Shown here: one piece after another, positions 2,362 to 17,640 of the stretch
Layout: each line of letters opens with the position of its first letter
Position numbering within the stretch: the stretch's first letter is position 1
Program-made: the position numbers and the translations under genes
The notes under the pieces: model-generated
What the model saw: the letters and a program-made list of their open reading frames with translations, nothing else
Database searches by the model: none
What the model was told of the DNA's origin: nothing
Source of the DNA: Candidatus Competibacter sp.
GTDB taxonomy: Bacteria > Pseudomonadota > Gammaproteobacteria > Competibacterales > Competibacteraceae
Reading direction: 5' to 3'
DNA length: 64,000 bases
Assembly: GCA_037045685.1 (NCBI GenBank)
Contig: JBAOII010000036.1
Coordinates: 18,317 to 82,316 of the forward strand

Positions 2362-3132
2362 ATGAAAGCCGTTATCCTGGCCGGCGGCCTCGGTACCCGT
2401 CTCAGCGAAGAAACCGTGCTCAAGCCCAAGCCGATGGTAGAAATCGGTGGTCGGCCGATCCTGTGGCACATCATGAAAATTTACTCGGCCCACGGGATCA
2501 ACGAGTTCGTAGTTTGTTGCGGATACAAGGGCTATTTGATCAAAGAGTATTTCGCCAATTACTTCCTGTACATGTCCGATGTGACCTTCGACATGGCGAA
2601 CAACCGGATGGAAGTGCATGTGAAGCACGCCGAGCCTTGGCGAGTCACGCTGGTCGATACTGGCCAAGAGACGATGACCGGTGGTCGCGTGCGCAGGATC
2701 AGGGACTATCTGGACAATCAAACTTTTTGCCTGACTTACGGCGATGGCGTATCCGATGTCGATATCGGAGCGCTGCTCGCTTTTCATCGGCGGCAGGAAA
2801 CTCTGGTCACCGTGAGCGGCGTGCAGCCGAGCGGGCGTTACGGTGTGCTGGAAGTCGAGCAAGAGAGGGTCATGGCGTTCCAGGAAAAACCCACGGGCAA
2901 CGGCATTTGGGTGAGCGGGGGATTTTTCGTCGTCGAACCTCGCGCGCTCGATTACATCGAGAGCGACGCCTCGATTTGGGAGCGCGAGCCGCTCGATCGC
3001 ATCGCGGCGGAAGGTCAATTGGCCATTTTCAAGCACGGCGGATTTTGGGCCGCGATGGATACTTTGCGCGACAAATATCACCTCGAACAGCTTTGGGCGA
3101 ACGGGCGGGCACCATGGAAAGTTTGGGATTGA
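2362..3132 (+). CDS. rfbF: Glucose-1-phosphate cytidylyltransferase (RfbF/DdhA/AscA type)
   Basis: 256 aa. MKAVILAGGLGTRLSEET...KPKPMVEIGGRPILWHIMKIYSAHGINEFVVCCGYKGYLIKEYF is the canonical nucleotidyltransferase G-loop and RfbF family signature. Confidence 0.9.
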   Translation: MKAVILAGGLGTRLSEETVLKPKPMVEIGGRPILWHIMKIYSAHGINEFVVCCGYKGYLIKEYFANYFLYMSDVTFDMANNRMEVHVKHAEPWRVTLVDTGQETMTGGRVRRIRDYLDNQTFCLTYGDGVSDVDIGALLAFHRRQETLVTVSGVQPSGRYGVLEVEQERVMAFQEKPTGNGIWVSGGFFVVEPRALDYIESDASIWEREPLDRIAAEGQLAIFKHGGFWAAMDTLRDKYHLEQLWANGRAPWKVWD

Positions 3133-4247
3133 CGCCGGCGTTTTGGGCGGGGCGGCGAGTCCTGGTCACTGGGCATACCGGCTTCAAGGGCGGCTGGCTG
3201 TGCTTGTGGTTACAACACTTGGGCGCGGAGGTCACCGGCTACGCCCTGGAGCCACCGACTCAACCGAATCTGTTCGAAGCGGCGCGGGTCGGCGAGGGCA
3301 TGCGCTCTGTCTTGGGTGATATCCGTGACTTCGATGCGTTTTGGTCGGCGGTGCGGGAGTATCAGCCCGAGATTATTTTCCACTTGGCCGCACAACCGCT
3401 GGTGTTGCCCGCTTACCGGCAACCGCTCGAGACCTACGCGATCAACGTGCTGGGCACGGTTCATCTGCTGGAGGCGGTGCGACGGACCGCTGGCGTTCGC
3501 GCTGTGGTGAACGTCACCAGCGATAAATGCTACGAAAATCGGGAATGGGTGGCCGGCTATCGAGAAGACGAGCCGATGGGTGGTTACGACCCCTACAGCA
3601 GCAGCAAGGGTTGCGCGGAACTGGTGACAGCCGCCTATCGCCGCTCCTTTTTCAATCGGGCATCGGATCGGGCTGGCGTAGCCTTGGCCTCGGCGCGGGC
3701 CGGCAATGTGATTGGTGGGGGGGATTGGGCGGAAGACCGTTTGATACCCGATGCGATTCGTTCTTTTCGCGCCGGTCGGCCGGTCACGCTCCGCCGCCCG
3801 GACGCCGTTCGACCCTGGCAGCATGTGCTGGAGCCGTTGAGCGGCTATCTGAGGTTGGCGGAACGGCTCTGGCGGGATGGAGCCGCTTATGCCGAAGGCT
3901 GGAACTTCGGGCCGCTAGATGAAGATGCCCACCCGGTCGATTGGCTGGTCGAGAGATTGACGGTGCTGTGGGGCGAAGGGGCGTCTTGGATTCGGGATGA
4001 AACCCCCCATCCGCACGAGGCGCGCTATTTGAAGCTGAATTGCGCCAAAGCGGCGGCCAAGCTGGATTGGCGGCCGCGCTGGTCGCTCGACCGCGCGCTG
4101 GCTGAAACCGTGGCCTGGTATCGCGCCGCTTACGCTAAAGCGGACATGCGAGCGTTTACTCTGGCGCAAATCGCCCGATACCGAGGCGGGGAAGTGCGTG
4201 AAGCCATGCTGGACGCATGCGCCCTCTCTCTCGCCGAGACTCTCTAG
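3114..4247 (+). CDS. rfbG: CDP-glucose 4,6-dehydratase (RfbG/DdhB/AscB type)
   Basis: The internal ATG at 3114 ([29 protein letters not shown]...) gives a Rossmann GxxGxxG, and ...[10 protein letters not shown] is the SDR YxxxK. The 282 codons upstream in ORF 2268..4247 overlap rfbF out of frame and look non-coding. Confidence 0.9.
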
Positions 4248-4264: not shown

Positions 4265-5593
4265 ATGACCGATCACTGCCCGAGCGAAACGGATTTGCGC
4301 CGCCGGATTTTGGCTTTGGTTGCCGAGTACGCCGAGCGCTTCATGCGACCCGCGCCGTTCGAGAGCGGCGTCACTCCCATTCCGCCATCCGGCAAGGTGA
4401 TCGGTGCGCGAGAACTGGAGTGCATGGTCGAGGCATCGCTGGATGGTTGGCTGACCACCGGTCGTTTCAACGCCGCGTTCGAGCAAAAGCTAGGCGAGTT
4501 TCTCGGGTTGCCCCACGTTCTGACGGTCAACTCTGGCTCGTCCGCGAATTTGGTGGCGGTGTCGGCCCTGTGCTCACCGTTACTCGGCGAACGAGCGTTG
4601 CGGCCGGGCGACGAGGTCATCACGGTCGCGGCGGGTTTTCCGACCACCGTCAATCCTCTGCTGGTCAATCGGTTGACGCCAGTGTTCGCGGATATCGAGA
4701 TCGGTACTTACAACGTCGATGTCGCCCGCCTCGAAGCCGCCATCGGGCCGCGCACCCGCGCGATCGTGCTGGCGCACACGCTGGGCAATCCGTTCGATCT
4801 CGACACCGTGACGCGGCTGGCGCGCGAGCGCGGATTGTGGTTGGTGGAGGATTGTTGCGATGCGCTCGGCTCGACTTGGCGGGGCCAGCGGGTCGGCACT
4901 TTCGGCGATATCGGCACGCTCAGCTTCTATCCGGCCCATCATATCACCATGGGCGAGGGCGGCGCCGTTTTTACCCGCAATCCGCTTTTGGCGCGGGTCA
5001 TGGCTTCTATCCGTGACTGGGGGCGCGATTGCTGGTGCGAGCCTGGCCGCGACAACACCTGCGGTCGTCGCTTCGATTGGCGGCTGGGGGATTTGCCGGC
5101 AGGTTACGATCACAAGTACGTTTACTCGCACTTGGGCTACAACCTGAAAATCACCGATATGCAGGCCGCTTGCGGGTTGGCGCAACTGGAGCGTCTGCCG
5201 GAATTCATCGCGGCGCGCCGGCGCAATTTTCGGTTTTTGCGAGAGCGATTGGCCGAGTTGGGCGAGTTTCTGATCTTGCCCGAGGCCACGTCGGGCAGCG
5301 ATCCTTGCTGGTTTGGGTTCCCCTTGACGCTGCGGGAGGGCGCTGGAGTAGAGCGAGTCGAGCTGCTGCGCTATCTGGAGCAGTGTCGGATCGGTACGCG
5401 ATTGCTGTTCGCCGGCAATCTGTTGCGGCAGCCGTATTTTCGAGACCGGGATTATCGGGTTCAAGACGATCTCGGCAATACCGATCAGGTTATGCGCAAC
5501 ACGTTCTGGATCGGTTTGTATCCTGGCTTGGGTGAGAACGCACTGGGTTATGCGGCGGAAAAAATGGGGCAATTTTTTGGAGTCGGATTTTAG
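4265..5593 (+). CDS. rfbH: CDP-6-deoxy-4-keto-hexose 3-dehydrase (E1, RfbH/DdhC/AscC type), PMP- and [2Fe-2S]-dependent
   Basis: DegT/DnrJ/EryC1 fold. His occupies the Schiff-base Lys position ([14 protein letters not shown]). The cysteine pattern C-X57-C-X1-C-X7-C (DCC...[12 protein letters not shown]) was read directly. Start chosen at MTDHCPSE (4265), after the rfbG stop. Confidence 0.85.
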
Positions 5594-6195
5594 TGGTCGC
5601 TTCTTCGCGGTATACCGAGACCGGAGCCGATCAAGCGCTATTCGAATCGCGGGCTACCTCGATTCCGGGTTGCTTCGAGATTCTGCCGAGAATCCGGCAC
5701 GATGCGCGTGGCCGATTCGTCAAAGTGTTTCATGTCGATTTTTTTGGGGCCAATCGGCTACAGACACGCTATGCGGAGGAGTATTACTCCAAATCGGTGC
5801 GCGGCGTCATTCGCGGCCTACACTTTCAAGCGCCTCCCATGGGCCACGCCAAGCTCGTGTATTGCGTCGAAGGCCGGGTGCAGGATGTCGCGCTCGATTT
5901 GCGAAGAGGCTCCCCGAGCTATGGGAACTACGAGCTGTTTGAATTGAGCGCCGAGGGAGCGAACATGGCATACCTGCCCGAAGGGGTCGCCCACGGTTTT
6001 TGCGTGCTGAGCGATACCGCCACGCTCGTTTACAAGGTTTCGACCGTCTATTCGGCCGAGCACGATGCCGGTCTACTGTGGAGTTCCGCCAATATCCCTT
6101 GGCTGGTGGATGATCCGATCGTGTCGGCGCGGGATCGCGCGCATCCGCCGTTCATCGATTTTGTCAGCCCTTTCGTTTACCGGGACGAGCGATGA
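5593..6195 (+). CDS. Sugar-nucleotide 3,5-/5-epimerase, RmlC-like cupin (AscE-like)
   Basis: 200 aa with a GTG start overlapping the rfbH stop. ...RGRFVKVF...SVRGVIRGLHFQAPPMGHAKLVYCVEGRVQDVALDLRRGSPSYG...LPEGVAHGF is the dTDP-4-dehydrorhamnose 3,5-epimerase family core. Confidence 0.75.
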   Translation: MVASSRYTETGADQALFESRATSIPGCFEILPRIRHDARGRFVKVFHVDFFGANRLQTRYAEEYYSKSVRGVIRGLHFQAPPMGHAKLVYCVEGRVQDVALDLRRGSPSYGNYELFELSAEGANMAYLPEGVAHGFCVLSDTATLVYKVSTVYSAEHDAGLLWSSANIPWLVDDPIVSARDRAHPPFIDFVSPFVYRDER

Positions 6196-7100
6196 AGGTT
6201 TTGGTCACAGGCGCTTCGGGCTTTCTCGGCTCGCGCTTGGTTCGCCGATTGTTGGAGGAAAGACATGAGGTTGCTTGCCTGTCGCGGGCGAGTTCGGCCC
6301 ATAAAAGCGAGTGCTTCGCGCTGCCACGGTGGACGGCGGGAGAGGATGGTTCCGGTTTCCGGGAGGCGCTAGAGGGTTTCCGGCCGGAAGTCGTCGCGCA
6401 TCTGGCGGCGCATTATGTGGCCGAACACGGCTACAAGGATGTCGGCTCTTTGGTGCGCTCAAACGTTTTGTTTGGCGCCTACCTGCTGGATGCCATGCGG
6501 GAGGTCGGCTGCGATGCCTTGGTTTATGCCGGAACTTCGTGGCAACACTATCGGGATCGGGAATACTGTCCGGTCAATCTGTATGCCGCGACCAAGCAAG
6601 CGTTCTCGACTTTGGCCGACTATTATCGCGACGCGGCTGGATTGCGGTTGCTGGAGCTGCATCTCTACGACAGCTACGGCGCGGATGACCCGCGAAAAAA
6701 ATTGATCAATCTGCTCAAGTTTTCCGCCGGGTCCGCCGATAAATTAGCGATGTCGGCGGGCGATCAGCGGCTTCATTTAGTGCATGTCGACGACGTGTCG
6801 CGGGGGGTCGCGCTGGCGTGCCAGCGAGTCCTGGAGTGGGCACCGGGCGAAAGGAATATTTATCGGTTGCCTTCGCAAAAAGCGGTCAGCTTGAGAGAGC
6901 TTATCGCGGCATTTAATGCGGTTAACCCTAAATGTCCGGTAAAGGTCATTTGGGGTAAGCGGGATTATCGGGAGCGAGAAGTTTTTCAACCATGGGAAAA
7001 AGCGAACATTTTACCTGGGTGGCAGCCGGCGATACCCCTTTTAGAAGGCCTGAAGATGGTTTGCCGAGATTCGGTAGAATTTGAGGTGGGTATAAAGTAA
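6192..7100 (+). CDS. NAD(P)-dependent sugar epimerase/reductase (SDR; AscF/RfbJ/RfbS-like 4-ketoreductase candidate)
   Basis: 302 aa. MKVLVTGASGFLGSRLV is a Rossmann motif and NLYAATK is a YxxxK catalytic motif. The start overlaps the upstream stop by 4 nt. Confidence 0.75.
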   Translation: MKVLVTGASGFLGSRLVRRLLEERHEVACLSRASSAHKSECFALPRWTAGEDGSGFREALEGFRPEVVAHLAAHYVAEHGYKDVGSLVRSNVLFGAYLLDAMREVGCDALVYAGTSWQHYRDREYCPVNLYAATKQAFSTLADYYRDAAGLRLLELHLYDSYGADDPRKKLINLLKFSAGSADKLAMSAGDQRLHLVHVDDVSRGVALACQRVLEWAPGERNIYRLPSQKAVSLRELIAAFNAVNPKCPVKVIWGKRDYREREVFQPWEKANILPGWQPAIPLLEGLKMVCRDSVEFEVGIK

Positions 7101-7105
7101 GTATT

Positions 7106-7849
7106 ATGGATAAGAAATATATAAATAATAATAACCTCGTGTATGACCTTGGCATGCATAATGGCGATGATACCGATTATTATTTACACAAAGGATATCG
7201 GGTAATCGCAGTAGATCCAAATCCTGATTTTATAAAAAAAGCGTTGATTAGATTTCATGAATTTATTGAAAAAGGGCAACTTGTATTAATAGAAAGCGCA
7301 ATTTGGGAGTCAGAGAGTACACGAGTATTTTATATAAGTCCAAATTTTCCACATCTGGCGAGTCTCCATAAAAATTGGGCAGCACGTGAAGATGTTAATT
7401 TAACTGAAATCGAAGTATGCTGTTTGCCAATAGAGCATTTATTTGCACTTTATGGGGTGCCGATGTATTTAAAAATAGATATAGAAGGGTCTGATGAATT
7501 AGTTCTCGATCAATTGGCAATGCTCCGCTATCTGCCGTGTTATTTGAGTGTAGAAGACTGCCGTTTTGGGTTCCGTTACCTGGAAAAATTGATGGCCTTA
7601 GGCTATAGCAGCTTTAAGCTCGTAAACCAAAAACATATCGCTGATTCGATCGATACGACCATCGGTTATCGGTTTTCGGCGCATGCTTCTGGGCCGATGA
7701 GCGAAGATGCTCCCGGGTCGTGGATTCCGGCCTGCGACATTGTCCAACACTATTCGGAGACCGTGCGCACGGTCGGCGGGCAGCGCCTGTCTCCGTTCGA
7801 TACATGGTGGGATATCCATTGCCGGGGTCCGGCGGAGTTCCGTATCTGA
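7106..7849 (+). CDS. FkbM-family methyltransferase
   Basis: 247 aa. LVYDLGMHNGDDTDYYL...YRVIAVDPNPDF...LKIDIEGSDELVLDQL matches the FkbM pattern (xDxGAxxG ... lKiDvEGaE). The 5' half is conspicuously AT-rich. Confidence 0.7.
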   Translation: MDKKYINNNNLVYDLGMHNGDDTDYYLHKGYRVIAVDPNPDFIKKALIRFHEFIEKGQLVLIESAIWESESTRVFYISPNFPHLASLHKNWAAREDVNLTEIEVCCLPIEHLFALYGVPMYLKIDIEGSDELVLDQLAMLRYLPCYLSVEDCRFGFRYLEKLMALGYSSFKLVNQKHIADSIDTTIGYRFSAHASGPMSEDAPGSWIPACDIVQHYSETVRTVGGQRLSPFDTWWDIHCRGPAEFRI

Positions 7850-7864
7850 AAGGGGTCTGCGGTT

Positions 7865-8917
7865 ATGAAAGCAAAAGTCAAACCACGTATCAATTTGGAT
7901 AATCGGGTACCGCTCCAAACAGTGATTCCGCTGTCCACGCCCTTCGTGCTGTTTGTAGACCCAGTCAATACTTGTAATTTTCAATGCAAATTTTGCCCTA
8001 CCGGCGACCGTGATTTAATTAAAAAAACTGGCCGCTGGCAAGGAAGAATAAATTTTGATTTATATAGAACAATCATTGATGGTTTAGAAGAGTTCGAGCA
8101 ACCACTTAAAGTGCTTCGTCTTTATAAAGAAGGTGAGCCTTTGTTGCATACTCGATTTGCTGACATGGTCAGTTACGCTAAAAAAAGCGGTTATGTCGAA
8201 TATGTTGATACGACCACAAATGGGTATTTGCTCACTCCTGAAAAAGTTGGGCCTCTCCTCGATGCAGGTATTGATCGAATCAATATTTCCGTCGATGGAA
8301 TGTCCGATGAACAATATTGGGATTTTGCTCATGTCCGAGTTGACTTTGATCGCTTTGTGAATAATATCCGCTATCTTTACCAACATAAAGGCGATTGTGA
8401 AATTTGCGTCAAAATACCAGGCGATATTCTTTCATCTGAAGACAAAGCGCGTTTTTTTGAAACCTTTGGTGAAATTTCGGATCGGGTGTTCATCGAAAAT
8501 ATAGCTCCCTGCTGGCCAGCGTTTAACGTAGAGGAGTATATGGATATCCAAATTAGCGAAGGTATCTACGGTCAGCCTATTGGCGAGGTCCAGTCCTGTC
8601 CTTATATCTTTTATTCTATTGCCGTGAACACTGATGGTACGGTCAGTCTCTGTTTTTTGGATTGGGAGCGCACGTTAATTATCGGAGATACCAAAACGCA
8701 AACTATCAAGGAAATCTGGGAAAGCCAAACGTTGCGCGAACATCAAGTGGCCCATCTGCAAGGTCGGCGTAAACATAACGCAACGTGTGCGGAATGCGGG
8801 CAACTATCCCATTGTTTGCCGGATAATATCGATGCGTACACCGGGCAGATAATGGAGCGTATGGCCGGGCGGCCAGGAAGCCATGAGCGGCGGGTTGCCC
8901 GATTGGAGCGCGTATGA
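7865..8917 (+). CDS. Radical SAM enzyme with SPASM/twitch-type C-terminal cysteine cluster
   Basis: 350 aa. CNFQCKFC is a CX3CX2C motif. C-terminally, SCPYIFYSIAVNTDGTVSLC is C-X12-G-X4-C and CAECGQLSHC is CX2CX5C. AT-richer than the flanks. Confidence 0.8.
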   Translation: MKAKVKPRINLDNRVPLQTVIPLSTPFVLFVDPVNTCNFQCKFCPTGDRDLIKKTGRWQGRINFDLYRTIIDGLEEFEQPLKVLRLYKEGEPLLHTRFADMVSYAKKSGYVEYVDTTTNGYLLTPEKVGPLLDAGIDRINISVDGMSDEQYWDFAHVRVDFDRFVNNIRYLYQHKGDCEICVKIPGDILSSEDKARFFETFGEISDRVFIENIAPCWPAFNVEEYMDIQISEGIYGQPIGEVQSCPYIFYSIAVNTDGTVSLCFLDWERTLIIGDTKTQTIKEIWESQTLREHQVAHLQGRRKHNATCAECGQLSHCLPDNIDAYTGQIMERMAGRPGSHERRVARLERV

Positions 8918-10575
8918 AAAATGAAAGAATTTTGTTTGTGATTCCTCCCTACTTTAGCGCTGACGACTATATAACCAGCGACCGGTCCAGGGTATTGCCG
9001 CCGTTTACTGTTCCTTATGGGGTTCTTTCGCTCGATGCCTATTTGAAGCGGCAGTGCGGGGATCAGGTTAGTTGTTATATTGTTGATTTAAATATTACGC
9101 TAAAAAATATTGTTGACTCCGTTGAGAAACAGGATTGCTTTACCGCGTTTAGCGCTTCGTTAACCGCAGCGATCCATGATTTCGAGCCATCCATGATTGG
9201 GATATCAGCGCTATTTAATATCTCGTTCCAATATATTGAAGAGATCGCCAAAACTGCAAAACAAGCGGATGACCGGCTTTTAATCCTGACGGGCGGTGGT
9301 TTGCCTTCGGCCGCCTACCAGCAAGTCCTGCGTCTTTGCCCGTCGGTAGATGCGGTGTGCAAGGGTGAGGGCGAGCTGCCGCTGGCCGATCTGGTGATGG
9401 CCGACGATAGGGCGGCCCTGCTCGAATCGCATCCCTCGTGGATTACCCGTATCGGGCTATCCTCCAACAAAAAACCCGAACCCCGGTTTATAAAAAATCT
9501 CGATGAGATTCCGATGTTGAACTATGAAATGATCGATCTCGACAATTATAATTCAAGATCGCTCGATAAAAGGTATTCGGGAATCAAAAAAAGAGAGATG
9601 GCGATTCACACCTCGCGCGGCTGTCCATTTTCATGTGTGTTTTGCTCGAACCCATTCTTGCATGGAAAAAAAATGCGCGCCATGAGCGTGGAGCGCGTCA
9701 TCGATGAAGTGAGGGTTATGAAGGAGCAGCATGGGCTAACGGTTTTACTGATCGAGGATGATCATTTTTTGTTCGATACCCAGCGTGCGAAGAAAATCCT
9801 GCACGGATTATCTGAACTGAACATTCGAATCGAATTTCCCAATGGGATCGCAGTTTACGCGATCGATGAAGAGCTGGCGGCTTTGCTCTACCAAGCTGGC
9901 GTGTCCACGGTCGCGCTCGCCATCGAGTCCGGCTCGGATTATGTTTTGAATAAAATTATCAAAAAGCCGCTGAAAACAAATATCGTCAAAAGCAAAGTTG
10001 AAATGCTCAGAAAGCAGGGCGTTTTGAGCCACGCTTTCATCGTGGTTGGCCTGCCGGGAGAACAGGCGTCCCATCGGCGGCAGACCCTTGAGCTATTGCT
10101 CGATATCGGTGTTGATTGGGCGCACGTTTTTTGTGCCGTGCCGATATTCGGCAGCAGACTTCACGAGATTTGCGTCGAAAACGGTTATATTGAGAACAGC
10201 AATTTTCTGGATCACATCAATACCAAATCGGTGATCAAGGCGCCTGGCGTCGATCCGCAGGAGATCGAGAAAACTGCCTATCAGATCAATTTGCTAGTCA
10301 ATTTTGTGCATAATTTCAACTTGAAAACGGGCAATTACCAAACGGCGATCCAATATTTTTCCAACGTGGCCGAAAAATATCCGCAACACGCTTTCGCCCA
10401 TCATGCTCTGGCGCGAGCGTACGCCGGCGCGGGAAGGTCGCACGATGCCGATGCGTCCCGAGACCGATTTGAGCGCATCCTCCTCCACGACCCGTGGTGG
10501 CGGGCTCAAGCGGAGGCGTTCGGGTTGATCGGGGACGCTACGCGCATTGGCCGCGAGAGCCCGATCGTCGCGTGA
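8914..10575 (+). CDS. B12-binding-domain radical SAM protein (class B methyltransferase-like) with TPR-like C-terminal tail
   Basis: 553 aa. It has an N-terminal B12-binding-like domain, a CPFSCVFC (CX3CX2C) motif, and a C-terminal helical repeat ...YQTAIQYFSNVAEKYPQHAFAHHALARAYAGAG. The start overlaps the upstream stop by 4 nt. Confidence 0.8.
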   Translation: MKNERILFVIPPYFSADDYITSDRSRVLPPFTVPYGVLSLDAYLKRQCGDQVSCYIVDLNITLKNIVDSVEKQDCFTAFSASLTAAIHDFEPSMIGISALFNISFQYIEEIAKTAKQADDRLLILTGGGLPSAAYQQVLRLCPSVDAVCKGEGELPLADLVMADDRAALLESHPSWITRIGLSSNKKPEPRFIKNLDEIPMLNYEMIDLDNYNSRSLDKRYSGIKKREMAIHTSRGCPFSCVFCSNPFLHGKKMRAMSVERVIDEVRVMKEQHGLTVLLIEDDHFLFDTQRAKKILHGLSELNIRIEFPNGIAVYAIDEELAALLYQAGVSTVALAIESGSDYVLNKIIKKPLKTNIVKSKVEMLRKQGVLSHAFIVVGLPGEQASHRRQTLELLLDIGVDWAHVFCAVPIFGSRLHEICVENGYIENSNFLDHINTKSVIKAPGVDPQEIEKTAYQINLLVNFVHNFNLKTGNYQTAIQYFSNVAEKYPQHAFAHHALARAYAGAGRSHDADASRDRFERILLHDPWWRAQAEAFGLIGDATRIGRESPIVA

Positions 10576-10615: not shown

Positions 10616-11929
10616 ATGCCCGTGATCGGGTTGCTGCACGTCACGGCGCATCTGGGCGGCGGCGTCGGTAAGGTGCTTTCGCGCCTGGTGGAGGAATCCG
10701 GCCGCCGGAACGATGGCTTGCGACACGCGATCATTTGTCTGGAGCGGCCGGAAAAAGACCAGTTCGCCGAGCGCGTTCGGGCTTGTGGCGCCGAGCTGCT
10801 GATCGGCCCGTCTCGGGAGGAGTTAAACCGGCGGATCGCCGAAGCCGACATCGTGCAGCTGGAATGGTGGCACCATCCGCGCGTGGCCGAATGGCTTTGC
10901 TCCGGCGTTTTGCCGCCCATGCGCCTGATCGTGTGGAGCCACGTATCGGGCTTGCATCCGCCCGAAATCCCCGCCGGGTTTTTGACCCTTCCCCACCGCT
11001 TCCTGTTCAGCTCTCCCTGCTCTTGGGAGCATCGGTCGGTGATCGGCTTGAGCCCGAGCCAGCGCTCGAAAGTGGATTCGGTCTTCAGCTCGGGCGGCTT
11101 CGAGGATTTGCCGGAGCCGCCACCGCGCTCGGCGCGCGGCCCTTTGCGGGTCGGCTATGTGGGCACGCTCAATTTCGCCAAATTGCATCCGCGGCTGCTC
11201 GACTTTCTCGGCGCCGTTTCGCTGCCGGGGTTTCGGTTGACGCTGGTCGGCGACCCCACCACCGGCGCCGAGCTGCGCGCTCGGGTTGCCGGCCAAAGCC
11301 TCGCGGTCCAACTGGAGTTTCGCGGCTACCGGACCGATGTGGCCGCCGAGCTAGCCCGGCTCGATGTCTTGGCGTATCTGCTCAACCCCCTGCACTATGG
11401 GACGACCGAGAACGCGCTGCTGGAGGCCATGGCGATGGGGGTGGTGCCGGTCGTGCTGGACAACCCTGCGGAGAGATGTTTGGTCCGGCACGGCGAAACC
11501 GGCCTGGTGGTCGGCGATCCCGCCGCGTTTGCGGAGGCTTTGGCGTACTTGGCCGATCACCCGGCCGAGCGCCGCAGACTGTCCGCTCGCGCCAGCCGAG
11601 AAACGCGTTTCCGCTTCTCGATCGAGCGCACGGCGGATGGCCTCGAAGCGCATTACCGCGCCGTGCTGGCGGAAGACAAGCGCGCTTTCGATTTGCGGCC
11701 GGTATTCGGGCCGACGCCGGCCGACTGGTTCCGAGCCTGCCAGGGAGACCAAGCGTGGCGCTTTGCCGATGGCGGGAGCGCGACGCGGGGGCCGGCGGTC
11801 GAAAAAGCCGGGCGTGGACCGCATTATTTGTACGAAAAAACCAAAAGCTCGGCGTTCCACTATCGCGATACGTTTCCGGACGATCCGAGATTGCGGCGTT
11901 GGGCCGAGCGGCTGGAGGCGGGCCGGTGA
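10616..11929 (+). CDS. Glycosyltransferase, GT-B fold (family 1/4-like)
   Basis: Start taken at MPVIGLLHVTAHLGGGVGKV (10616). ...GTTENALLEAMAMGVVPVVLDNP...GETGLVV is the EX7E-type GT1 C-terminal signature. Confidence 0.75.
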   Translation: MPVIGLLHVTAHLGGGVGKVLSRLVEESGRRNDGLRHAIICLERPEKDQFAERVRACGAELLIGPSREELNRRIAEADIVQLEWWHHPRVAEWLCSGVLPPMRLIVWSHVSGLHPPEIPAGFLTLPHRFLFSSPCSWEHRSVIGLSPSQRSKVDSVFSSGGFEDLPEPPPRSARGPLRVGYVGTLNFAKLHPRLLDFLGAVSLPGFRLTLVGDPTTGAELRARVAGQSLAVQLEFRGYRTDVAAELARLDVLAYLLNPLHYGTTENALLEAMAMGVVPVVLDNPAERCLVRHGETGLVVGDPAAFAEALAYLADHPAERRRLSARASRETRFRFSIERTADGLEAHYRAVLAEDKRAFDLRPVFGPTPADWFRACQGDQAWRFADGGSATRGPAVEKAGRGPHYLYEKTKSSAFHYRDTFPDDPRLRRWAERLEAGR

Positions 11930-13110
11930 AACGCTTTGCTCTGCCTGACAGGCGGGTTGCGCGCCGGTTGTTCCAGCGGCTGGCGGAGCGCCCCCCGGCG
12001 GTCGAGCCATGCCGGACCGATAAGCCCTTGGTTCTTTATGGCGCCGGCAATCTCGGCGCTCTGGCGGCGGATATGCTGGGGCGGCTGGCGTTGCCGGTGG
12101 CCTACGCGATGGATCGGGCGCCATCGGGCGACCGGCTGTTGGCGGGGCGTATCCCGGTGCTGGAGCCAAGACAGCCCTCTCCGGAAGAGCGGGGCGGTCA
12201 CACGGTCGCCGTCTGCGTGGTCAACGCGCCCTACCGGCCGATCCGCGACGCGCTCGCCGAAATGGGCTGGGGGCATATTTGCCCGGTTTACGACCTCTTG
12301 GAAGCCTATGCCGACCGGATGCCCATCAAGAATGGCTGGTTTGCGGGCCCCTTGAGCGAGCGAGATGTGGCGGGCATCGAAGCGGTGCTTGCCCGCTGGG
12401 AAGATGACCGTTCCCGCGCCGCTCACTTGCAGTTCCTGGCTTGGCGGCTCCACCGCCGAGAGTGGTGTTTCGCCGATGCGCCGGTGCGCATCGACGATCG
12501 GTATTTCATCGGGCCGATCCGCGAGGCCTTGCGGCCCGACGAGTGTTTCTTGGACGGCGGGGCCCATCGCGGAGCGGTGATCGAGCGATGGCTCGAAACG
12601 GCCGGAGGCGCGTTTCGGGCGGTCTTGGCCGTGGAGCCGGACCGAGAAAACGCGCGATGCCTGCGCGAGCGCATCGCCAGGTTGCCGGCCGGCGTGGCCC
12701 GACGCATCCGGGTGATGGAGTGCGCCCTGGCCGCGCGCGGCGGGAGCCAACCGTTTCGCCACGGTTTTGACTTGGCCTCGCGCCTGGAGCCGGGGGCTGC
12801 CGATAGCGTCGCGGCCCATCGGTTGGACGATCTGGATTTCCCGGTTTCGTTCGGCAAAATCCATCTGGAAGGGGGTGAGCGGGCGGCGCTCGAAGGGGGG
12901 ATGGAAACCTTGCGGCGTTTTCGCCCCCTGCTGGCGGTCACGCTTTATCACGACCGGGACGGCCTGTGGCGAACCGCCGCGCTGTTGATGGAGCTGTTGC
13001 CGGACTACCGGTTTTTGTTGCGCCTGCACGCATGGTGTGGGACCGGGGTGGTCTTGTACGCGATCCCCGCTGAAAGATGGGTGGGTTCTTCCGCCGCCGG
13101 AAATCGCTGA
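11926..13110 (+). CDS. FkbM-family methyltransferase (second copy, GC-rich)
   Basis: The GTG at 11926 overlaps the GT1 stop (GTGA). ...FLDGGAHRGAVIERW...AVEPDREN...GKIHLEGGERAALEG is the FkbM pattern. The upstream part of the 791-aa ORF 10735..13110 is an off-frame overlap with the GT1 gene. Confidence 0.7.
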   Translation: MKRFALPDRRVARRLFQRLAERPPAVEPCRTDKPLVLYGAGNLGALAADMLGRLALPVAYAMDRAPSGDRLLAGRIPVLEPRQPSPEERGGHTVAVCVVNAPYRPIRDALAEMGWGHICPVYDLLEAYADRMPIKNGWFAGPLSERDVAGIEAVLARWEDDRSRAAHLQFLAWRLHRREWCFADAPVRIDDRYFIGPIREALRPDECFLDGGAHRGAVIERWLETAGGAFRAVLAVEPDRENARCLRERIARLPAGVARRIRVMECALAARGGSQPFRHGFDLASRLEPGAADSVAAHRLDDLDFPVSFGKIHLEGGERAALEGGMETLRRFRPLLAVTLYHDRDGLWRTAALLMELLPDYRFLLRLHAWCGTGVVLYAIPAERWVGSSAAGNR

Positions 13111-13176: not shown

Positions 13177-16100
13177 ATGAGCGAACCGTATGGATCGAAT
13201 GATCAATGCGAGGTTGATGTCATCATTCCCGCATACAATTATGGTCGCTATTTAGATGGCTGCCTGACTTCCGTTTTAGAGCAAACCTTCGGTGGCTACT
13301 CTGTTCTCGTTATCGATAACGCTTCGGAAGACGATACCGAGGAGGTCGCGAGGCGGTGGGTCCGTTCGGATTCCCGTTTTAGCTATATCAGGAATGAAAC
13401 CAATATCGGTTTGCGGGATAGCTCCCTGAAGGCTTACGCGCATACCCGGGCCAAATGGGTTTTGTTTCTCTCGGCGGACGATCTGTTAAAGCCCCGCTTT
13501 CTGGAAATGGCGGTGAGCGCTCTCCGGCGTCACCCGGAATGCACGTTCGCGTATAGCGCTTGGCGCATGCTCGTCGATAATCCGGGTGGCTTGCGCCACG
13601 GGGAAGAAATAGACGTGCAGATCCCCCATGATCGGAGCGGTTGCTACGATGAGTCCGGGCTTTTGCTGTCTCATAACTGGATCACCAACTCGTTTACCCT
13701 GTTCCGTCGCGAAGCTTGCGAGTCGGCAGGCGGTTTCATGCCGGCCGGTTTCAGCCATTTCGGCGATTGGTATTTATGGATGCGCCTTTCCGCGAAAGGG
13801 CCGGCATTTTACATTAACGAGCATTTGGGGCTATACCGGAGCCACGGCCGGTCCGAGTCGGATCGCTTGATCGCCAACCACCAATCCGGCTTCGACCATA
13901 TCTACTTTCACGACAAAATTTTTGAGTCCGATCTCTGGCCTTGGCCGGTGAGGCTGTTGGCTAAGGCCAACCAAATTCGTTGGCTGACGGGAGAACCGCT
14001 CACCCAAATCGCCCGTAAAATGGGTGGAGCAGCGGCGGAGCCCAGGGTGCGCGGCTTCGTGGATCGGCATCGAAGCAGGTTTTGGACCGAGGTGGCGCGG
14101 TCCGTTCTCCATTACAAGAATTCGATAATCCCAAATTTTCTGGACACGCCGGAGAATGGGCTCGCCTTGCTGCGAGAAGCTTTGCAGCATGATCCCCATA
14201 ATGCGGAAGCCGCCGCTTTGCTCGAGCATCACCGAGAAGGCCGTGGCGACTATCGGGAGTGGTCGCTGGGCCATCGCTGGGATGCCGAGCGGTGCCGCCG
14301 GTTATTGGCCGGCACCGATGCGCCCGAAACCATTGTCGATATCCATGTCTTGGTGGTGGATCGCGGGGATCGGAACCTGCTCGCCGATACGATCGACGAT
14401 CTCGCCGCTCAGGCGTTAGCGAATTGGCGACTCACGGTGGTTTCCGAAACGGCCCGTCCCGAGTCGGCCGAGCCCATCGAGATGATCGAGTGGGCGCAGG
14501 TGTCGGGCCAATCGGCCGCCGAGGCGATAGCCGCTTCGGTCGTCGCGAGTGCCGCGCGCTGGTTTGTTTGCTTTCCGGCCGGCGTGCGCTTGTCGCCAGC
14601 ATTTACTCTGCTCGCGGGGTTGCGGTTGCGCGAGCGCCCCGATTCCTTGCTGTTGTATCTGGACGAAGATGCTGTAGACGCTGATGGAGAACACGCGTTC
14701 CCGAGATTCAAGCCCGACGTTAACGTCGATTTTCTTCGTTCGTATCCCTATGTCGGCGCCGCGACCCTGATCTCTAGGTCCGTGATGCTCGATCCGAGAA
14801 TCGCGATTTTGCCGGTCGGGTTACCGCGCAATTACGGAGCGGCGCTGCTGGCTATCGAGCGAACTCCGAGCGCGGTGGAACATCTGGATGAGGTTTTGGT
14901 GCATGTCCCGGAGCCGCTGGCCGCCGAGTTCCAAAGTACCGAGCTCGCGAGATTGCTGGTCGAGCAGCACTTGGCGAGGTGCGGAATTGCCGCCGAGGTT
15001 TCCGATGGATCGCTGGCCGGTTCTTTGGTCGTCGAATATCTGCTGCCGGCGCAACCGCCGATGGTCAGCGTTCTGATATTGGTTCGAGACAATATCGAGC
15101 ATGTCCAGCTTTGCCTGGAAGCTTTGCTGGAGAAAACCCGTTATCCGAGTTTCGAGGTGTTGGCCGTTGTCGGCCCGGATACGCCACAGCCGGTGCTCGC
15201 TTATTTGGCCGAGCTGGCCGGCGGCGATGCCCGCGTGCGACCGTTGCGCCACGAGGAAACGCGCGATGGCGCCGCGATTCGCCACCTTCAGGCTGATCGA
15301 GCGGTTGGCGAATACTTGGTGCTGCTGGATGACGATGTCGCCGCGTTGCAGGATAACTGGCTTGCCCGTTTGGTGGCCATGGGGTTGCGTCCGGAGGTCG
15401 GAGCCGTTGGCTGCCGGTTGCTGGCCCTCGATCGACGGGTGCGCCATGCTGGGATGATTCTCGGCATTGGCGGTGCGATTGATCGCATAGGGGCTGGGTT
15501 GACGCTGACCGAGAGCGGGTATATGGGCCGCGTTCAATTGGCCCAAAATTTTTCGGCCGTGAGCGCCGCTTGCATGCTGGTGCGAAAAAGCCTGTTTCTT
15601 GAGGTGGGGGGCTTTGCTGAAGCGGGTGTCAGCGCCTTTTCCCGCGATGGCGATTTGTGCCTCAAAATCGGAGACCGGGGTTTTCTGATCGTTTGGACTC
15701 CGCACGTTACGATGGTTTGCCACGGAAGCCGAGATGAATGGGGCGAATCCGATCCCGATCCCGATAAACGCCATCAATCCGCTCGGCGGGCGTTTGTCAA
15801 AAAATGGCTTCACCGCTTGGGCAACGATCCCGCCTATAATCGCCACTTAAGCCTGCGACAACGAGAATGGATGATCGACGGTGATTTTGACGTGCCTTGG
15901 CATCCCGGCTTGGAGCCCTTGCCGCGAATTGTCGCTCAACCACCCGATGAAATGGGCGTCGGACAATACCGGATGATCGGTCCGCTCAAGGAACTGACCG
16001 ACAGCGGTCGGATTTGCAGCTTTCTCTTGCCGGCGTTGACCAGCGACAAACGCTTCCTGCCGTATGTATCCGAATTGATCAGGGCAAAACCCACGGTCTT

Positions 16101-16974: not shown

Positions 16975-17640
16975 GTGCCATCGAAAACGACGCGCAAGCG
17001 CGGTGGTCCCGGCCACCGATCCACGTCTTCGCCCGCGCCGCGCAACGCGGCCGTGGCGTTGCTGCAAAGCCTGATGCGTGGCGACCAGCGCCTCACGGTG
17101 CGGATCGACGGGCAGCCACTCGCGCTGGCGCAAGCGATCGCCTTGGCCGAACAGCGCGGGAAAGCGGGTCAGGCGCGCGAAGCCGGGCGCGTTTTCGATC
17201 AGCTTTTGGCCCAGGCGGCCGAGTGGCACCGGGAGAGGCGTTTGGACGATGCCGAAGCGGTTTACCGTCAGGTCTTCGAGGCGCGGCCCGAATATATCGA
17301 TGCCTTGCATCTGCTGGGCGTGATTTACTCGCAGCGCGGCGATCACCAAACCGCCGAGCGCCTGATTCGGCAGGCGTTGGCGGAGAGTCCCTCGGCCGAT
17401 ACCTATCACAACAATCTGGGCAAGGCGCTGCAAGGCCAGGGGCAGTTGGAAGAAGCCGCCGCCAGTTACGGGCGCGCTTTGGAATTGAATCCCGGCCACG
17501 CCATGGCCTGTAACAATCTGGGGAAGGTGTTTCTGGAGCTGGGGCGTCGGCCGGAGGCCATCGCCAGCTTCCAACGGGCGGTGGAGCTGCGACCGGATTA
17601 CGCCGAGGCGCGGGCCAACCTGGAACGAGCGTCGCGGTAG
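16975..17640 (+). CDS. Tetratricopeptide-repeat (TPR) protein
   Basis: 221 aa, GTG start. It carries 4-5 consecutive 34-aa TPR units (AEAVYRQVFEARPEYIDALHLLGVIYSQRGDHQTAERLIRQAL...YHNNLGKALQGQGQLEEAAASYGRALELNPGH...). Confidence 0.8.
   Translation: MPSKTTRKRGGPGHRSTSSPAPRNAAVALLQSLMRGDQRLTVRIDGQPLALAQAIALAEQRGKAGQAREAGRVFDQLLAQAAEWHRERRLDDAEAVYRQVFEARPEYIDALHLLGVIYSQRGDHQTAERLIRQALAESPSADTYHNNLGKALQGQGQLEEAAASYGRALELNPGHAMACNNLGKVFLELGRRPEAIASFQRAVELRPDYAEARANLERASR

What the first reader, a model, noticed from the sequence alone, without database searches (positions are those of the whole stretch)
7106..10575. AT-richer three-gene cassette (FkbM methyltransferase, SPASM radical-SAM, B12 radical-SAM with TPR tail) inserted in the sugar island
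From about 7.1 to 10.3 kb the composition is visibly more AT-rich than the ~63% GC flanks, for example atggataagaaatatataaataataataacc at the start of the cassette. This suggests the cassette was acquired separately. It couples a CX3CX2C/SPASM-type enzyme (C-X12-G-X4-C and CX2CX5C read directly) with a cobalamin-type radical-SAM enzyme, translationally coupled by a 4-nt overlap. SPASM enzymes mostly act on peptides. A few twitch/SPASM relatives (BtrN, DesII-like chemistry) act on sugars. Class B enzymes methylate unactivated carbons. The pair could C-methylate or otherwise remodel the dideoxyhexose, or it could modify flagellin itself, and the TPR tail hints at protein recognition. I know of no precedent for either in flagellar loci.
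Basis: partly seen in the sequence, partly recalled or inferred. Interest (0 to 1): 0.72.

Follow-up and report, generated by a model that had tools for sequence, protein, structure and literature searches.

The report
Radical-SAM enzymes in flagellin sugar island
Three real genes (a methyltransferase and two radical-SAM enzymes) form an unusually AT-rich patch inside a flagellin sugar-decoration island, but they belong to a widespread, uncharacterised sugar-modification gene set found in over 300 species rather than being a one-off insert.

Summary
Window 7106-10575 encodes an FkbM methyltransferase, a radical-SAM/SPASM protein and a B12-domain radical-SAM protein, with an ATGA overlap between the last two. 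They lie in the deepest and longest low-GC tract of the 64-kb window. The host resembles Ca. Competibacter, and the island sits between flgK-flgL and fliC-flaG-fliD.

The interpretation needs revising.
- The three genes are not one cassette. Across 80 genomes the SPASM gene is the centre of a near-universal triad, SDR>SPASM>GT1, attached to a CDP-6-deoxyhexose pathway.
- The B12 enzyme and the small FkbM are optional add-ons. B12 is almost confined to these islands, but only about a quarter of the islands have it.
- The low GC is specific to this genome and has no mobile-element marks, so a recombination patch fits better than insertion of a new cassette.
- The "TPR tail" is a conserved C-terminal domain of the whole B12 family.
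- The closest characterised relatives act on sugars: BtrN and DesII for the SPASM protein; AprD4, then TokK, CysS and MgmA, for the B12 protein.
- Flagellar genes lie within 10 kb in 15 of 53 full-length loci, but the module also occurs in Pedobacter and an archaeon.

Most likely these are sugar-tailoring enzymes: a BtrN-like oxidation or epimerisation, plus optional C-methylation. I found no published precedent.

The parts
2362..3132 (+). rfbF, glucose-1-phosphate cytidylyltransferase (first step of the CDP-sugar pathway)
   Evidence: TIGR02623 450 bits, cutoff 300
3114..4247 (+). rfbG, CDP-glucose 4,6-dehydratase
   Evidence: TIGR02622 501 bits, cutoff 278; ATG at 3114
4265..5593 (+). rfbH, CDP-4-keto-6-deoxyglucose 3-dehydrase (E1); start could also be 4217
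   Evidence: NF011936 714 bits, cutoff 423; start candidates
5593..6195 (+). RmlC-like sugar epimerase
   Evidence: PF00908 1.5e-52; TIGR01221 152.6 bits, just under cutoff 155.75
6192..7100 (+). SDR, presumed 4-ketoreductase; first member of the conserved SDR>SPASM>GT1 triad; the low-GC tract begins in its last ~280 nt
   Evidence: PF01370 8e-31; gene order; GC3 falls to 0.45-0.48 from 6822
7106..7849 (+). small FkbM-family methyltransferase (FkbM1), optional module
   Evidence: PF05050 and TIGR01444 above cutoffs; present in 29 of 83 loci; GC3 0.20-0.30 in its 5' half
7865..8917 (+). radical-SAM enzyme with a BtrN-like twitch/SPASM-variant auxiliary-cluster domain; core gene of the island
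   Evidence: PF04055+PF13186; invariant C37/C41/C44 plus 7 conserved Cys; BtrN profile match E 1.5e-14; fold matches to BtrN, DesII, BlsE; family in 304 species
8914..10575 (+). B12-domain (class-B-type) radical-SAM enzyme with a conserved TPR-like C-terminal domain; optional tailoring module
   Evidence: PF02310+PF04055; C237/C241/C244, SxL-X26-GGG; fold matches to AprD4, MgmA, TsrM, CysS, TokK; TokK aligns through the N-terminal domain; 29 of 37 B12-anchored loci carry SPASM
10616..11929 (+). GT1/GT4-type glycosyltransferase, third member of the conserved triad
   Evidence: PF00534/PF13692; found with SPASM in 79 of 83 loci; ATG at 10616
11926..13110 (+). long FkbM-family methyltransferase (FkbM2)
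   Evidence: PF05050 1.2e-6; present in 58 of 83 loci
13177..16920 (+). 1247-aa multidomain glycosyltransferase (GT2, GT2, GT1-like)
   Evidence: PF00535 1.6e-37, two stretches, plus weak GT1 hits
16975..17640 (+). stand-alone TPR protein at the end of the island
   Evidence: many TPR families, e.g. TPR_1 3e-25
764..1975 (+). flgL, left boundary of the island
   Evidence: TIGR02550 300 bits, cutoff 127
17782..19245 (+). fliC flagellin, right boundary and presumed glycan acceptor
   Evidence: Flagellin_N 6.5e-48, Flagellin_C 3.5e-28

Best explanation
The three genes are tailoring enzymes of a conserved, widely distributed glycan-biosynthesis island. In this genome the island occupies the classic flagellin-glycosylation position between flgL and fliC.

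Shown by family assignment: RfbF, RfbG and RfbH make a CDP-4-keto-3,6-dideoxyhexose.

Inferred by analogy with the CDP-ascarylose pathway: the RmlC-like epimerase and the SDR finish a CDP-3,6-dideoxy-L-hexose.

Inferred for the SPASM-type enzyme: it is the central, nearly invariant partner of the SDR and the GT1 glycosyltransferase. It most likely works like BtrN. A 5'-deoxyadenosyl radical abstracts hydrogen from a sugar carbinol carbon. The substrate radical is then either oxidised to a ketone through the auxiliary Fe-S cluster(s), or quenched from the other face (epimerisation), just before or just after transfer by GT1.

Inferred for the B12-domain enzyme: it is an optional later decoration, most likely methylcobalamin-dependent methylation of an unactivated carbon of the sugar or of one of its O-methyl groups.

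Inferred for the FkbM enzymes: they O-methylate the sugar.

The low-GC tract is best read as a recombination patch. In this reading a homologous FkbM1-SPASM-B12 segment from a lower-GC relative replaced the resident segment of an island that already existed. It is not the arrival of a new function.
For: Gene and domain calls.
Position: the island lies between FlgK/FlgL and FliC/FlaG/FliD within a flagellar regulon.
Synteny: identical in Methylomarinum; the same gene set sits next to flagellin in Mariprofundus and Rhizobium.
Distribution: the family occurs in 304 species. Co-occurrence with SPASM in 83 loci: GT1 79, RmlC-like 66, SDR 58, RfbG 57, RfbF 54. The order SDR>SPASM>GT1 is near-universal, with B12 inserted between SPASM and GT1 in the nearest clade.
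Reverse test: 29 of 37 B12-anchored loci of at least 8 kb carry a SPASM orthologue.
Flagellar linkage: flagellar filament or hook-junction genes lie within +/-10 kb in 15 of 53 full-length loci.
SPASM protein: the BtrN profile match covers both core and auxiliary domain, with the Cys residues in register. The nearest folds, BtrN, DesII and BlsE, act on sugars or nucleotide sugars.
B12 protein: canonical SxL-X26-GG spacing, and the N-terminal domain aligns to the TokK cobalamin domain. Fold neighbours include the methylases MgmA, TsrM, CysS and TokK.
Recombination patch: no GC dip in other genomes; the tract edges lie inside the SDR and B12 genes; there are no repeats or tRNA; the same relatives are closest for both flank and cassette genes.
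Against: No member of either radical-SAM family is characterised, so the chemistry rests on remote homology (15-21% identity, TM 0.5-0.6). Peptide-modifying SPASM enzymes (CteB, anSME, SuiB) score nearly as well as the sugar enzymes. By both sequence and fold the best match of the B12 protein is AprD4, which is not a methylase and binds no cobalamin. No curated NCBIfam methylase family reaches its cutoff. RfbH normally needs an E3 reductase, and none was seen in the island. No donor for the low-GC tract was found, and the gradual GC3 gradient through B12 is not a clean breakpoint. Flagellin glycosylation itself is unproven here.
Confidence: 0.55

Rival explanations
1. The B12-domain enzyme is not a methylase. 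It is an AprD4-like (or HpnJ/OxsB/BchE-like) radical-SAM enzyme that dehydrates, rearranges or oxidises the sugar, for example a 1,2-diol dehydration leading to an extra deoxygenation, with an SDR reducing the resulting ketone.
For: AprD4 is the top hit by sequence (1.6e-21), by family profile (5.9e-24) and by fold (2.8e-19, TM 0.61/0.73), and it acts on a sugar. NCBIfam hits to HpnJ, BchE and AprD4 are in the same score range as those to the methylases, all far below cutoff.
Against: The AprD4 alignment covers only the radical-SAM core (230-431). The N-terminal domain aligns to the cobalamin domain of TokK instead. It keeps the canonical SxL-X26-GG cobalamin signature, invariant in 28 sequences. 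B12 co-occurs with RfbH, so it is not a substitute 3-deoxygenase. The best NCBIfam hit is a B12 methyltransferase family (162 bits).
Confidence: 0.25
2. One reading: a self-contained three-gene cassette was acquired horizontally as a unit and added a new radical-SAM function to a pre-existing sugar island.
For: There is a strong GC and GC3 break covering just these genes. A milder dip over the same three genes occurs in two Dechloromonas species. In the nearest clade FkbM1 occurs only where B12 is present. Close relatives exist with SDR>SPASM>GT1 only, so the variable genes do come and go.
Against: SPASM is present in every island variant, so it cannot be a new addition. The tract edges fall inside the SDR and B12 coding regions rather than at gene boundaries. 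There are no direct repeats, tRNA, integrase or transposase. Gene order is identical to islands with normal composition. No phylogenetic discordance is seen between cassette and flanks.
Confidence: 0.25
3. The radical-SAM enzymes act on protein, not sugar. The SPASM enzyme would modify flagellin or another polypeptide, as SPASM maturases do, and the TPR-like tail of the B12 enzyme would dock onto flagellin for side-chain C-methylation.
For: Most characterised SPASM enzymes modify peptides. CteB, anSME, ChlB, SuiB and EpeE are among the fold matches at E 1e-11 to 1e-9. The B12 tail matches designed TPR proteins (E 4e-7). MgmA, a protein methylase, is the third-best fold match for B12.
Against: The family occurs in Pedobacter, Fibrobacteres, Anaerolinea and Methanospirillum, always with CDP-sugar, methyltransferase and GT genes and with no flagellin nearby. 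The gaps around the cassette genes (5, 15, -4 and 40 nt) leave no room for a precursor-peptide gene there. The closest characterised relative is BtrN, with the auxiliary-cluster Cys in register. The tail is invariant whether or not flagellar genes are nearby. Flagellar linkage is independent of B12 presence (5 of 21 against 12 of 59).
Confidence: 0.08
4. The island does not serve the flagellum in this organism. It makes an LPS, capsule or S-layer glycan, and its position next to flagellar genes is incidental.
For: Only 28% of full-length loci have flagellar genes within 10 kb. Non-flagellate hosts carry the module. No Maf or other recognised flagellin transferase was identified in the window.
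Against: The island sits exactly between flgL and fliC inside a 60-kb flagellar and chemotaxis regulon, on the same strand. The same linkage recurs in Alpha-, Beta-, Gamma- and Zetaproteobacteria and a planctomycete, often with a TPR-GT41 enzyme adjacent to flagellin. By my own rough estimate, chance would give only 1-2%. No Wzx/Wzy or ABC-exporter gene was seen in the island.
Confidence: 0.12

Closest known systems
BtrN (butirosin pathway; 'twitch' radical-SAM 2-deoxy-scyllo-inosamine dehydrogenase)
   Same: It is the best solved relative of the SPASM-type protein by sequence (7e-7), by profile (1.5e-14, over both core and auxiliary domain) and by fold (6.6e-14). The CX17C hairpin and CX2C cysteines are in register. 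The substrate is a sugar-like secondary alcohol.
   Different: Identity is only about 18%. This family is about 100 residues longer and has three extra conserved Cys (C178, C216, C317) and an invariant LPDxxD motif. It sits in a CDP-deoxyhexose/glycosyltransferase island rather than an aminoglycoside cluster. Its substrate and reaction outcome are unknown.
DesII and BlsE (radical-SAM enzymes acting on TDP-4-amino-4,6-dideoxyglucose and cytosylglucuronate)
   Same: They are second- and eighth-ranked fold matches (1e-12 and 1e-11). They act directly on nucleotide-linked sugars, as proposed here.
   Different: No meaningful sequence similarity beyond the radical-SAM core. The auxiliary-domain architecture differs. 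The nucleotide is TDP or cytosine-nucleoside rather than CDP.
AprD4 (apramycin pathway; radical-SAM 1,2-diol dehydratase working with the reductase AprD3)
   Same: It is the best solved match of the B12-domain protein by sequence, profile and fold. It has the same two-domain layout and a sugar substrate.
   Different: By my own knowledge of the AprD4 literature, AprD4 binds no cobalamin. Its N-terminal domain does not align in sequence to this family, which keeps SxL-X26-GG. The NCBIfam AprD4 model scores 96 bits against a 500 cutoff. AprD4 has no TPR-like tail.
Cobalamin-dependent (class B) radical-SAM methylases: TokK, CysS, MgmA, TsrM; sugar-acting GenK/GenD1 of gentamicin
   Same: B12-binding domain plus radical-SAM core. 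Fold matches at 1e-15 to 1e-17. TokK aligns through the cobalamin domain. GenK and GenD1 C-methylate sugar carbons, and CysS extends an O-methyl group (my own knowledge).
   Different: No curated family cutoff is reached; the best is Sden_1168 P-methyltransferase at 162 bits against 575. The context is cell-surface or flagellin glycan rather than an antibiotic or cofactor pathway. The conserved C-terminal TPR-like domain is specific to this family.
Flagellin glycosylation islands between flgL and fliC (Pseudomonas aeruginosa a-type island; Enterobacteriaceae and Geobacillus islands surveyed in PMC4875605 and PMC5109656)
   Same: Same chromosomal position. Same kinds of accessory genes: nucleotide-sugar pathway, FkbM methyltransferases, GT2/GT1/GT41 transferases, and CDP-4-keto-6-deoxyglucose genes in one enterobacterial type.
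   Different: Those surveys report no radical-SAM enzymes. Here two are present, and one is the most conserved protein of the island.
CDP-ascarylose (3,6-dideoxy-L-hexose) pathway AscA-F of Yersinia pseudotuberculosis
   Same: RfbF, RfbG and RfbH are above equivalog cutoffs. An RmlC-like epimerase and an SDR follow in the same order as AscE and AscF (the pathway itself is from my own knowledge).
   Different: No E3 (AscD) reductase gene is in the island. The pathway feeds a flagellar island rather than O-antigen. Extra radical-SAM and methylation steps follow.

Membership tests
Radical SAM superfamily (both proteins) | PF04055 match above gathering score and a CX3CX2C cluster motif | tested here: met
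   68 and 74 bits against cutoff 29.5. C37/C41/C44 and C237/C241/C244 are invariant in the family alignments.
SPASM domain (canonical, two auxiliary clusters) | Full seven-Cys motif CX9-15GX4C ... CX2CX5CX3C ... C | tested here: not met
   PF13186 is matched (49.5 bits, cutoff 21.5), and CX12GX4C and CX2CX5C are present. However the CX3C cysteine is replaced by LPD(N/D), and no downstream Cys exists.
Twitch subclass (BtrN-like, one auxiliary cluster) | Hairpin CX17C plus CX2C ligands aligned to BtrN C169/C187/C232/C235 | tested here: inconclusive
   The profile aligns SLCFLDW to LPCFEDF and CxxC to CKNC. Three further conserved Cys (C178, C216, C317) could form a second cluster. Cluster number is not testable here.
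Class B (cobalamin-dependent) radical SAM | N-terminal B12-binding domain with SxL...GG signature | tested here: met
   PF02310 60.7 bits against 32.1. S98-A-L100 and G127-G128-G129 are invariant with 26-residue spacing. The domain aligns to the TokK cobalamin domain.
Class B (cobalamin-dependent) radical SAM | Actual cobalamin binding and methyl transfer | not testable with these tools
   This needs purified protein. AprD4 shows that the fold alone is not proof.
Any curated B12 radical-SAM equivalog (Sden_1168, PhpK, HpnJ, BchE, AprD4, KedN5, HpnR ...) | NCBIfam score at or above the curated cutoff | tested here: not met
   Best 162.5 against 575; the others score 75-113 against 480-700.
Any curated SPASM/twitch equivalog (anSME-like, NirJ, AhbD, PqqE, peptide maturases) | NCBIfam score at or above the curated cutoff | tested here: not met
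   Best 82.7 against 380, and only over the N-terminal core.
FkbM methyltransferase family | TIGR01444 / PF05050 above cutoff | tested here: met
   46.2 against 37.7, and 38.3 against 22.7.
TPR repeat protein (B12 tail) | A Pfam TPR family at or above gathering score | tested here: not met
   Best is TPR_19 at 23.9 against 25. The region matches designed TPR proteins at E 4e-7 and folds as 5-6 confident helices, so it is TPR-like but sub-threshold.
Flagellin glycosylation island | Glycan-biosynthesis genes located between hook-junction genes and flagellin | tested here: met
   FlgK and FlgL at 14-1975; FliC, FlaG and FliD at 17782-21988.
Flagellin glycosylation island | Flagellin actually carries the glycan | not testable with these tools
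   Requires mass spectrometry of flagellin.
CDP-3,6-dideoxyhexose pathway | RfbF, RfbG and RfbH equivalogs | tested here: met
   450/300, 501/278 and 714/423 bits.
CDP-3,6-dideoxyhexose pathway | E3 reductase (RfbI/AscD) partner of RfbH | not tested
   None of the island genes annotated here is an E3-type reductase. The rest of the window and genome was not searched for one.
Horizontally acquired genomic islet | Compositional deviation | tested here: met
Horizontally acquired genomic islet | Mobility signatures (flanking repeats, tRNA, integrase or transposase) or phylogenetic discordance | tested here: not met
   Only chance-level repeats and no tRNA. The same relatives are closest for both flanks and cassette.

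The most novel reading that the evidence does not exclude
The SDR>SPASM>GT1 triad defines a previously unrecognised radical-SAM-dependent step in making cell-surface and flagellar deoxyhexose glycans. The step is conserved at 55-77% identity from Proteobacteria to Nitrospira, Planctomycetes, Bacteroidota and a methanogen, and yields a sugar that ordinary nucleotide-sugar enzymology cannot make (for example, one epimerised or oxidised at an unactivated position). In about a quarter of islands a cobalamin-dependent radical-SAM enzyme then C-methylates it. I believe this would be the first radical-SAM chemistry shown in protein glycosylation or primary surface-glycan biosynthesis.
Probability: 0.45. 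Interest if true: 0.75.

Novelty: new variant of a known kind. Interest (0 to 1): 0.58.

Why it matters
Radical-SAM sugar chemistry is known almost entirely from antibiotic pathways (BtrN, DesII, AprD4, GenK). Here two uncharacterised radical-SAM families are built into a glycan island that recurs in several hundred species, and in more than a quarter of full-length loci it sits beside flagellin genes.

The SPASM-type enzyme is the most conserved protein of the island and is locked between a reductase and a glycosyltransferase. This suggests an obligatory and so far unknown step in making a surface sugar.

Natural variants with and without the B12 and small FkbM genes exist in culturable bacteria (Dechloromonas, Rhizobium, Methylomarinum, Mariprofundus). 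Mass spectrometry on these variants could test the predicted chemistry directly.

The result would bear on flagellar antigenic diversity, on cobalamin dependence of surface structures in environmental bacteria such as Competibacter in wastewater, and on the known range of radical-SAM reactions.

Tried and rejected
Literature. Seven full-text searches combined radical SAM, SPASM or cobalamin with flagellin glycosylation, CDP-glucose, nucleotide sugar, O-antigen or capsule. They found no characterised member and no description of this module. The Campylobacter HS:19 and Pelobacter papers mention unrelated radical-SAM genes only.

Donor search for the low-GC tract. Per-gene best hits and blastn against 160 fetched loci gave no locus with elevated identity in the cassette. 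The best hits are 75% protein identity and about 69-71% nucleotide identity.

Mobile-element signatures. The repeat and tRNA scans were negative.

Intrinsic low GC. The idea that these genes always have low GC is rejected: relatives show GC3 up to 0.90 for the same genes.

B12 as a substitute for the RfbH 3-deoxygenation. Rejected, because the two genes co-occur.

B12 tied to a small O-methyltransferase. B12 is often next to FkbM1 or a CmcI-like methyltransferase, which hints at O-methyl extension as in CysS. But each also occurs without the other, so I kept this only as a lead.

Cysteine clustering in the AlphaFold model.

Full report
OBSERVATION

Three same-strand ORFs lie at 7106-7849 (247 aa), 7865-8917 (350 aa) and 8914-10575 (553 aa).
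- The first matches the FkbM methyltransferase family above both Pfam and NCBIfam cutoffs.
- The second matches Radical_SAM plus the SPASM domain.
- The third matches B12-binding plus Radical_SAM, with weak, sub-threshold TPR matches at residues 460-512.

The quoted AT-rich start and the ATGA stop/start overlap were read directly.

The compositional break is real. GC in 500-nt windows falls to 0.36-0.53, against 0.60-0.68 in the flanks. This is the longest and deepest low-GC run in the 64-kb window, with a tract mean of 0.489 against 0.640 +/- 0.050 outside. Third-position GC is 0.42, 0.42 and 0.59 for the three genes, against 0.63-0.87 for their neighbours. At finer scale the tract starts about 280 nt inside the 3' end of the upstream SDR gene. 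It is deepest from 7106 to about 8400 (GC3 0.20-0.37) and climbs gradually through the B12 gene. The next gene then jumps to 0.78-0.85.

SETTING

An identical B12-type protein is labelled Candidatus Competibacter in NCBI. The window is a flagellar and chemotaxis regulon. In order it carries FlgK, FlgL, the sugar island, FliC, FlaG, FliD, FleQ, FliI, FlhF, FlhA, FlhB, MCPs and CheA.

The island (about 2.3-17.6 kb) holds the following genes:
- RfbF, RfbG and RfbH, all above NCBIfam equivalog cutoffs
- an RmlC-like epimerase
- an SDR
- the three genes in question
- a GT1 glycosyltransferase
- a second, longer FkbM protein
- a 1247-aa multidomain glycosyltransferase
- a TPR protein

This is the classic flgL-fliC position of flagellin glycosylation islands.

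IS IT A CASSETTE?

Both radical-SAM proteins belong to large, strongly conserved families. The SPASM-type family has 2151 hits, and the best 120 are 61-77% identical. The B12-type family has 749+ hits, and the best 120 are 54-67% identical.

Neighbourhoods in three distant genomes show the same gene set:
- Methylomarinum has identical gene order.
- Mariprofundus has the set next to flagellin and FlaG.
- Rhizobium sp. BK251 has it between flagellins and the flagellar basal-body genes.

A scan of one genome per species found the SPASM-type family in 304 species. These span Proteobacteria, Nitrospira, Planctomycetes, Chloroflexi, Geobacteraceae, Bacteroidota, Fibrobacteres, Gemmatimonadota and the archaeon Methanospirillum.

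Counts of genes found with the SPASM gene across 83 loci:

| Gene | Loci |
|---|---|
| GT1 | 79 |
| RmlC-like | 66 |
| SDR | 58 |
| long FkbM | 58 |
| RfbG | 57 |
| RfbF | 54 |
| RfbH | 33 |
| small FkbM | 29 |

A B12 orthologue (at least 50% identity) is present in only 21 of the 80 new loci.

Gene order is striking. SDR>SPASM>GT1 is almost universal. In the beta/gamma-proteobacterial and Nitrospira clade nearest the window, B12 is inserted between SPASM and GT1. The small FkbM, when present in that clade, sits between SDR and SPASM, and only where B12 is also present.

The reverse test used 37 B12-anchored metagenome loci of at least 8 kb. Of these, 29 contain a SPASM orthologue, and most exceptions are truncated.

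So SPASM is a core gene of the island. B12 and the small FkbM are optional decorations that essentially exist only within such islands. The "three-gene cassette" is not a natural unit.

THE LOW-GC TRACT

In relatives the same genes are not compositionally deviant. Thiobacillus L007, for example, has GC3 of 0.90 and 0.90 against 0.82-0.88 in its flanks. Methylomarinum, Mariprofundus and Rhizobium are flat. Only two Dechloromonas species show a milder dip over the same three genes.

There are no flanking repeats beyond chance, no tRNA and no mobility genes. The same relatives (L145, L007, L012, L014) are closest for both cassette and flank genes, so no donor or phylogenetic discordance is visible. 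Nucleotide alignments to high-GC relatives drop out between about 6820 and 9283.

The tract edges lie inside the conserved SDR and B12 genes. Together this fits homologous replacement of a segment of an existing island by a lower-GC allele better than insertion of a new function. The evidence is indirect, and a mixed event cannot be excluded.

WHAT THE SPASM-TYPE ENZYME IS

The family alignment (26 sequences, 72% mean column identity) has three features:
- The radical-SAM triad C37/C41/C44 is invariant.
- Seven further Cys are conserved: C178, C216, C245, C263, C308, C311 and C317.
- The canonical fourth Cys of CX2CX5CX3C and the final downstream Cys are missing, replaced by an invariant LPDxxD.

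It is therefore a SPASM variant or twitch-like domain. No curated NCBIfam equivalog comes close (best 83 bits against a 380 cutoff).

The closest solved relative is BtrN. The match holds by sequence and by family profile (E 1.5e-14). The profile match covers both domains, and the hairpin Cys and CxxC are in register. It also holds by fold: BtrN 6.6e-14, then DesII, CteB, BlsE and anSME (model pLDDT 86).

BtrN, DesII and BlsE act on sugars or nucleotide sugars. Peptide maturases score nearly as well, so the fold alone does not decide the substrate. Context does most of the work:
- The gene is locked between a sugar reductase and a glycosyltransferase.
- The gaps around the cassette genes (5, 15, -4 and 40 nt) leave no room for a precursor-peptide gene there.
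- The gene occurs in non-flagellate bacteria and an archaeon, inside glycan clusters.

I infer a BtrN-like hydrogen abstraction at a sugar carbinol carbon. The outcome would be either oxidation to a ketone or epimerisation.

WHAT THE B12-TYPE ENZYME IS

The family (28 sequences) keeps C237/C241/C244. It has an invariant SxL-X26-GGG with the canonical cobalamin-domain spacing, and it lacks DxHxxG. From my own knowledge, that absence is usual for class B enzymes.

No curated family cutoff is reached. The best is a B12 P-methyltransferase family at 162 bits against 575.

The top solved match by sequence, profile and fold is AprD4, a sugar 1,2-diol dehydratase. The cobalamin methylases MgmA, TsrM, CysS and TokK follow, then OxsB. 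AprD4 aligns only over the radical-SAM core, whereas TokK aligns through the N-terminal cobalamin domain.

I therefore favour a cobalamin-dependent C-methylase acting as an optional tailoring step. An AprD4-like non-methylating reaction remains a serious rival.

The "TPR tail" has many invariant residues across the whole family (N463, F464, N467, N469, Y481, N484, K488, Y489, P490, H492, D526, W529). It is modelled as confident helices within a protein whose pTM of 0.85 suggests one compact unit. It looks like a family-specific C-terminal domain rather than an added protein-docking module.

FLAGELLAR LINK

Flagellin, FlgL, FlgK or FliD genes lie within +/-10 kb of the SPASM gene in 15 of 53 full-length loci, or 17 of 80 overall. 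The hosts are Alpha-, Beta-, Gamma- and Zetaproteobacteria and a planctomycete. By my own rough estimate, chance would give 1-2%. Linkage is independent of B12 presence: 5 of 21 loci with B12 against 12 of 59 without.

The module is not restricted to flagella:
- Pedobacter carries it with two B12-type and two SPASM-type radical-SAM genes, methyltransferases, a GT2 and a ThDP enzyme plus SDR. From my own knowledge, that pair resembles YerE/YerF of yersiniose biosynthesis.
- Methanospirillum carries it flanked by transposases.

KNOWN OR NEW

Published surveys of flagellin glycosylation islands list FkbM, GT41 and CDP-4-keto-6-deoxyglucose genes but no radical SAM. None of seven literature searches found a characterised member or a description of the module. 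The library is incomplete, so this is absence of evidence only.

I class the finding as a new variant of a known kind. It is a flagellin or surface-glycan island whose conserved core includes an uncharacterised radical-SAM step, with an optional cobalamin-type radical-SAM decoration.

VERDICT

The interesting object is not the AT-rich patch. It is the conserved SDR>SPASM>GT1 triad with its optional B12 module.

The chemistry is inferred, not shown. Overall confidence in the model is about 0.55, and interest is 0.58.

Noticed in passing
window 59901-61800: This is the second-deepest low-GC run of the window (minimum 0.43 near 60801). It lies around a 194-aa ORF (60160-60744) and the start of an MCP gene. 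Its origin was not examined.
   Followed up: no
window 61416-63500: A methyl-accepting chemotaxis protein carries a C-terminal hemerythrin domain (sCache_2, HAMP, MCPsignal, Hemerythrin). It may be an oxygen- or iron-sensing chemoreceptor.
   Followed up: no
window 1801-2800 and 13001-13700: There are further, milder low-GC patches at the flgL-rfbF junction and 5' end of rfbF (minimum 0.49) and at the start of the 1247-aa glycosyltransferase (minimum 0.53). The island is compositionally mosaic, not uniform.
   Followed up: partly
window 2268-17640: RfbH (the E1 dehydrase) is present, but no E3-type reductase (RfbI/AscD) gene was seen in the island. The same appears true of related islands, so the electron donor for 3-deoxygenation is unexplained.
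   Followed up: no
L113 (metagenome contig Ga0307515_10000130), 10001-11596: A B12-family homologue (54% identity) sits alone in a 21.6-kb locus with none of the other island genes detectable. It is the one clear exception to confinement of B12 to these islands.
   Followed up: no
L035 Pedobacter 3444-19928; L061 Methanospirillum 4580-15509: These are non-flagellar versions of the island that are very rich in radical-SAM genes. Pedobacter has 2 B12-type and 2 SPASM-type genes plus a ThDP enzyme and SDR resembling YerE/YerF. The archaeal copy is 60% identical to the bacterial SPASM protein and is flanked by DDE and YhgA-like transposases, which suggests inter-domain transfer.
   Followed up: partly
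L023, L038-L040, L043-L045, L049, L053, L059, L147, L152, L159: Many islands carry a second, divergent SPASM paralogue (about 28-30% identity where measured, in L147, L152 and L159) and extra B12 paralogues (22-37%) downstream of GT1. Several radical-SAM steps per glycan may therefore be common.
   Followed up: no
L002, L026, L028, L049, L055, L063, L074, L079, L082, L120, L152, L156, L159: The B12-type gene is recurrently adjacent to a CmcI/rhamnosyl-O-methyltransferase-like gene. In the window's clade it is instead associated with the small FkbM. This could mean sequential O-methylation and radical C-methylation at one position, but each gene also occurs without the other.
   Followed up: partly
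L017, L018 (Dechloromonas hortensis, D. denitrificans): The same three genes show a milder GC3 dip (0.46, 0.62, 0.61 against 0.67-0.74 in the flanks). The FkbM1-SPASM-B12 segment may be exchanged between genomes repeatedly.
   Followed up: partly
window 25781-28597, 31253-33310, 33282-34976, 46520-49039: Long ORFs (564-938 aa) have no Pfam match and overlap opposite-strand ORFs of similar length. In a 63% GC genome some may be spurious, and the true genes there were not resolved.
   Followed up: no
L084 (metagenome contig WBZM01001869.1): A 19.4-kb metagenome contig carries the same island at 99-100% protein identity, including the low-GC genes. The tract is therefore present in at least one other sampled population of this organism.
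   Followed up: partly
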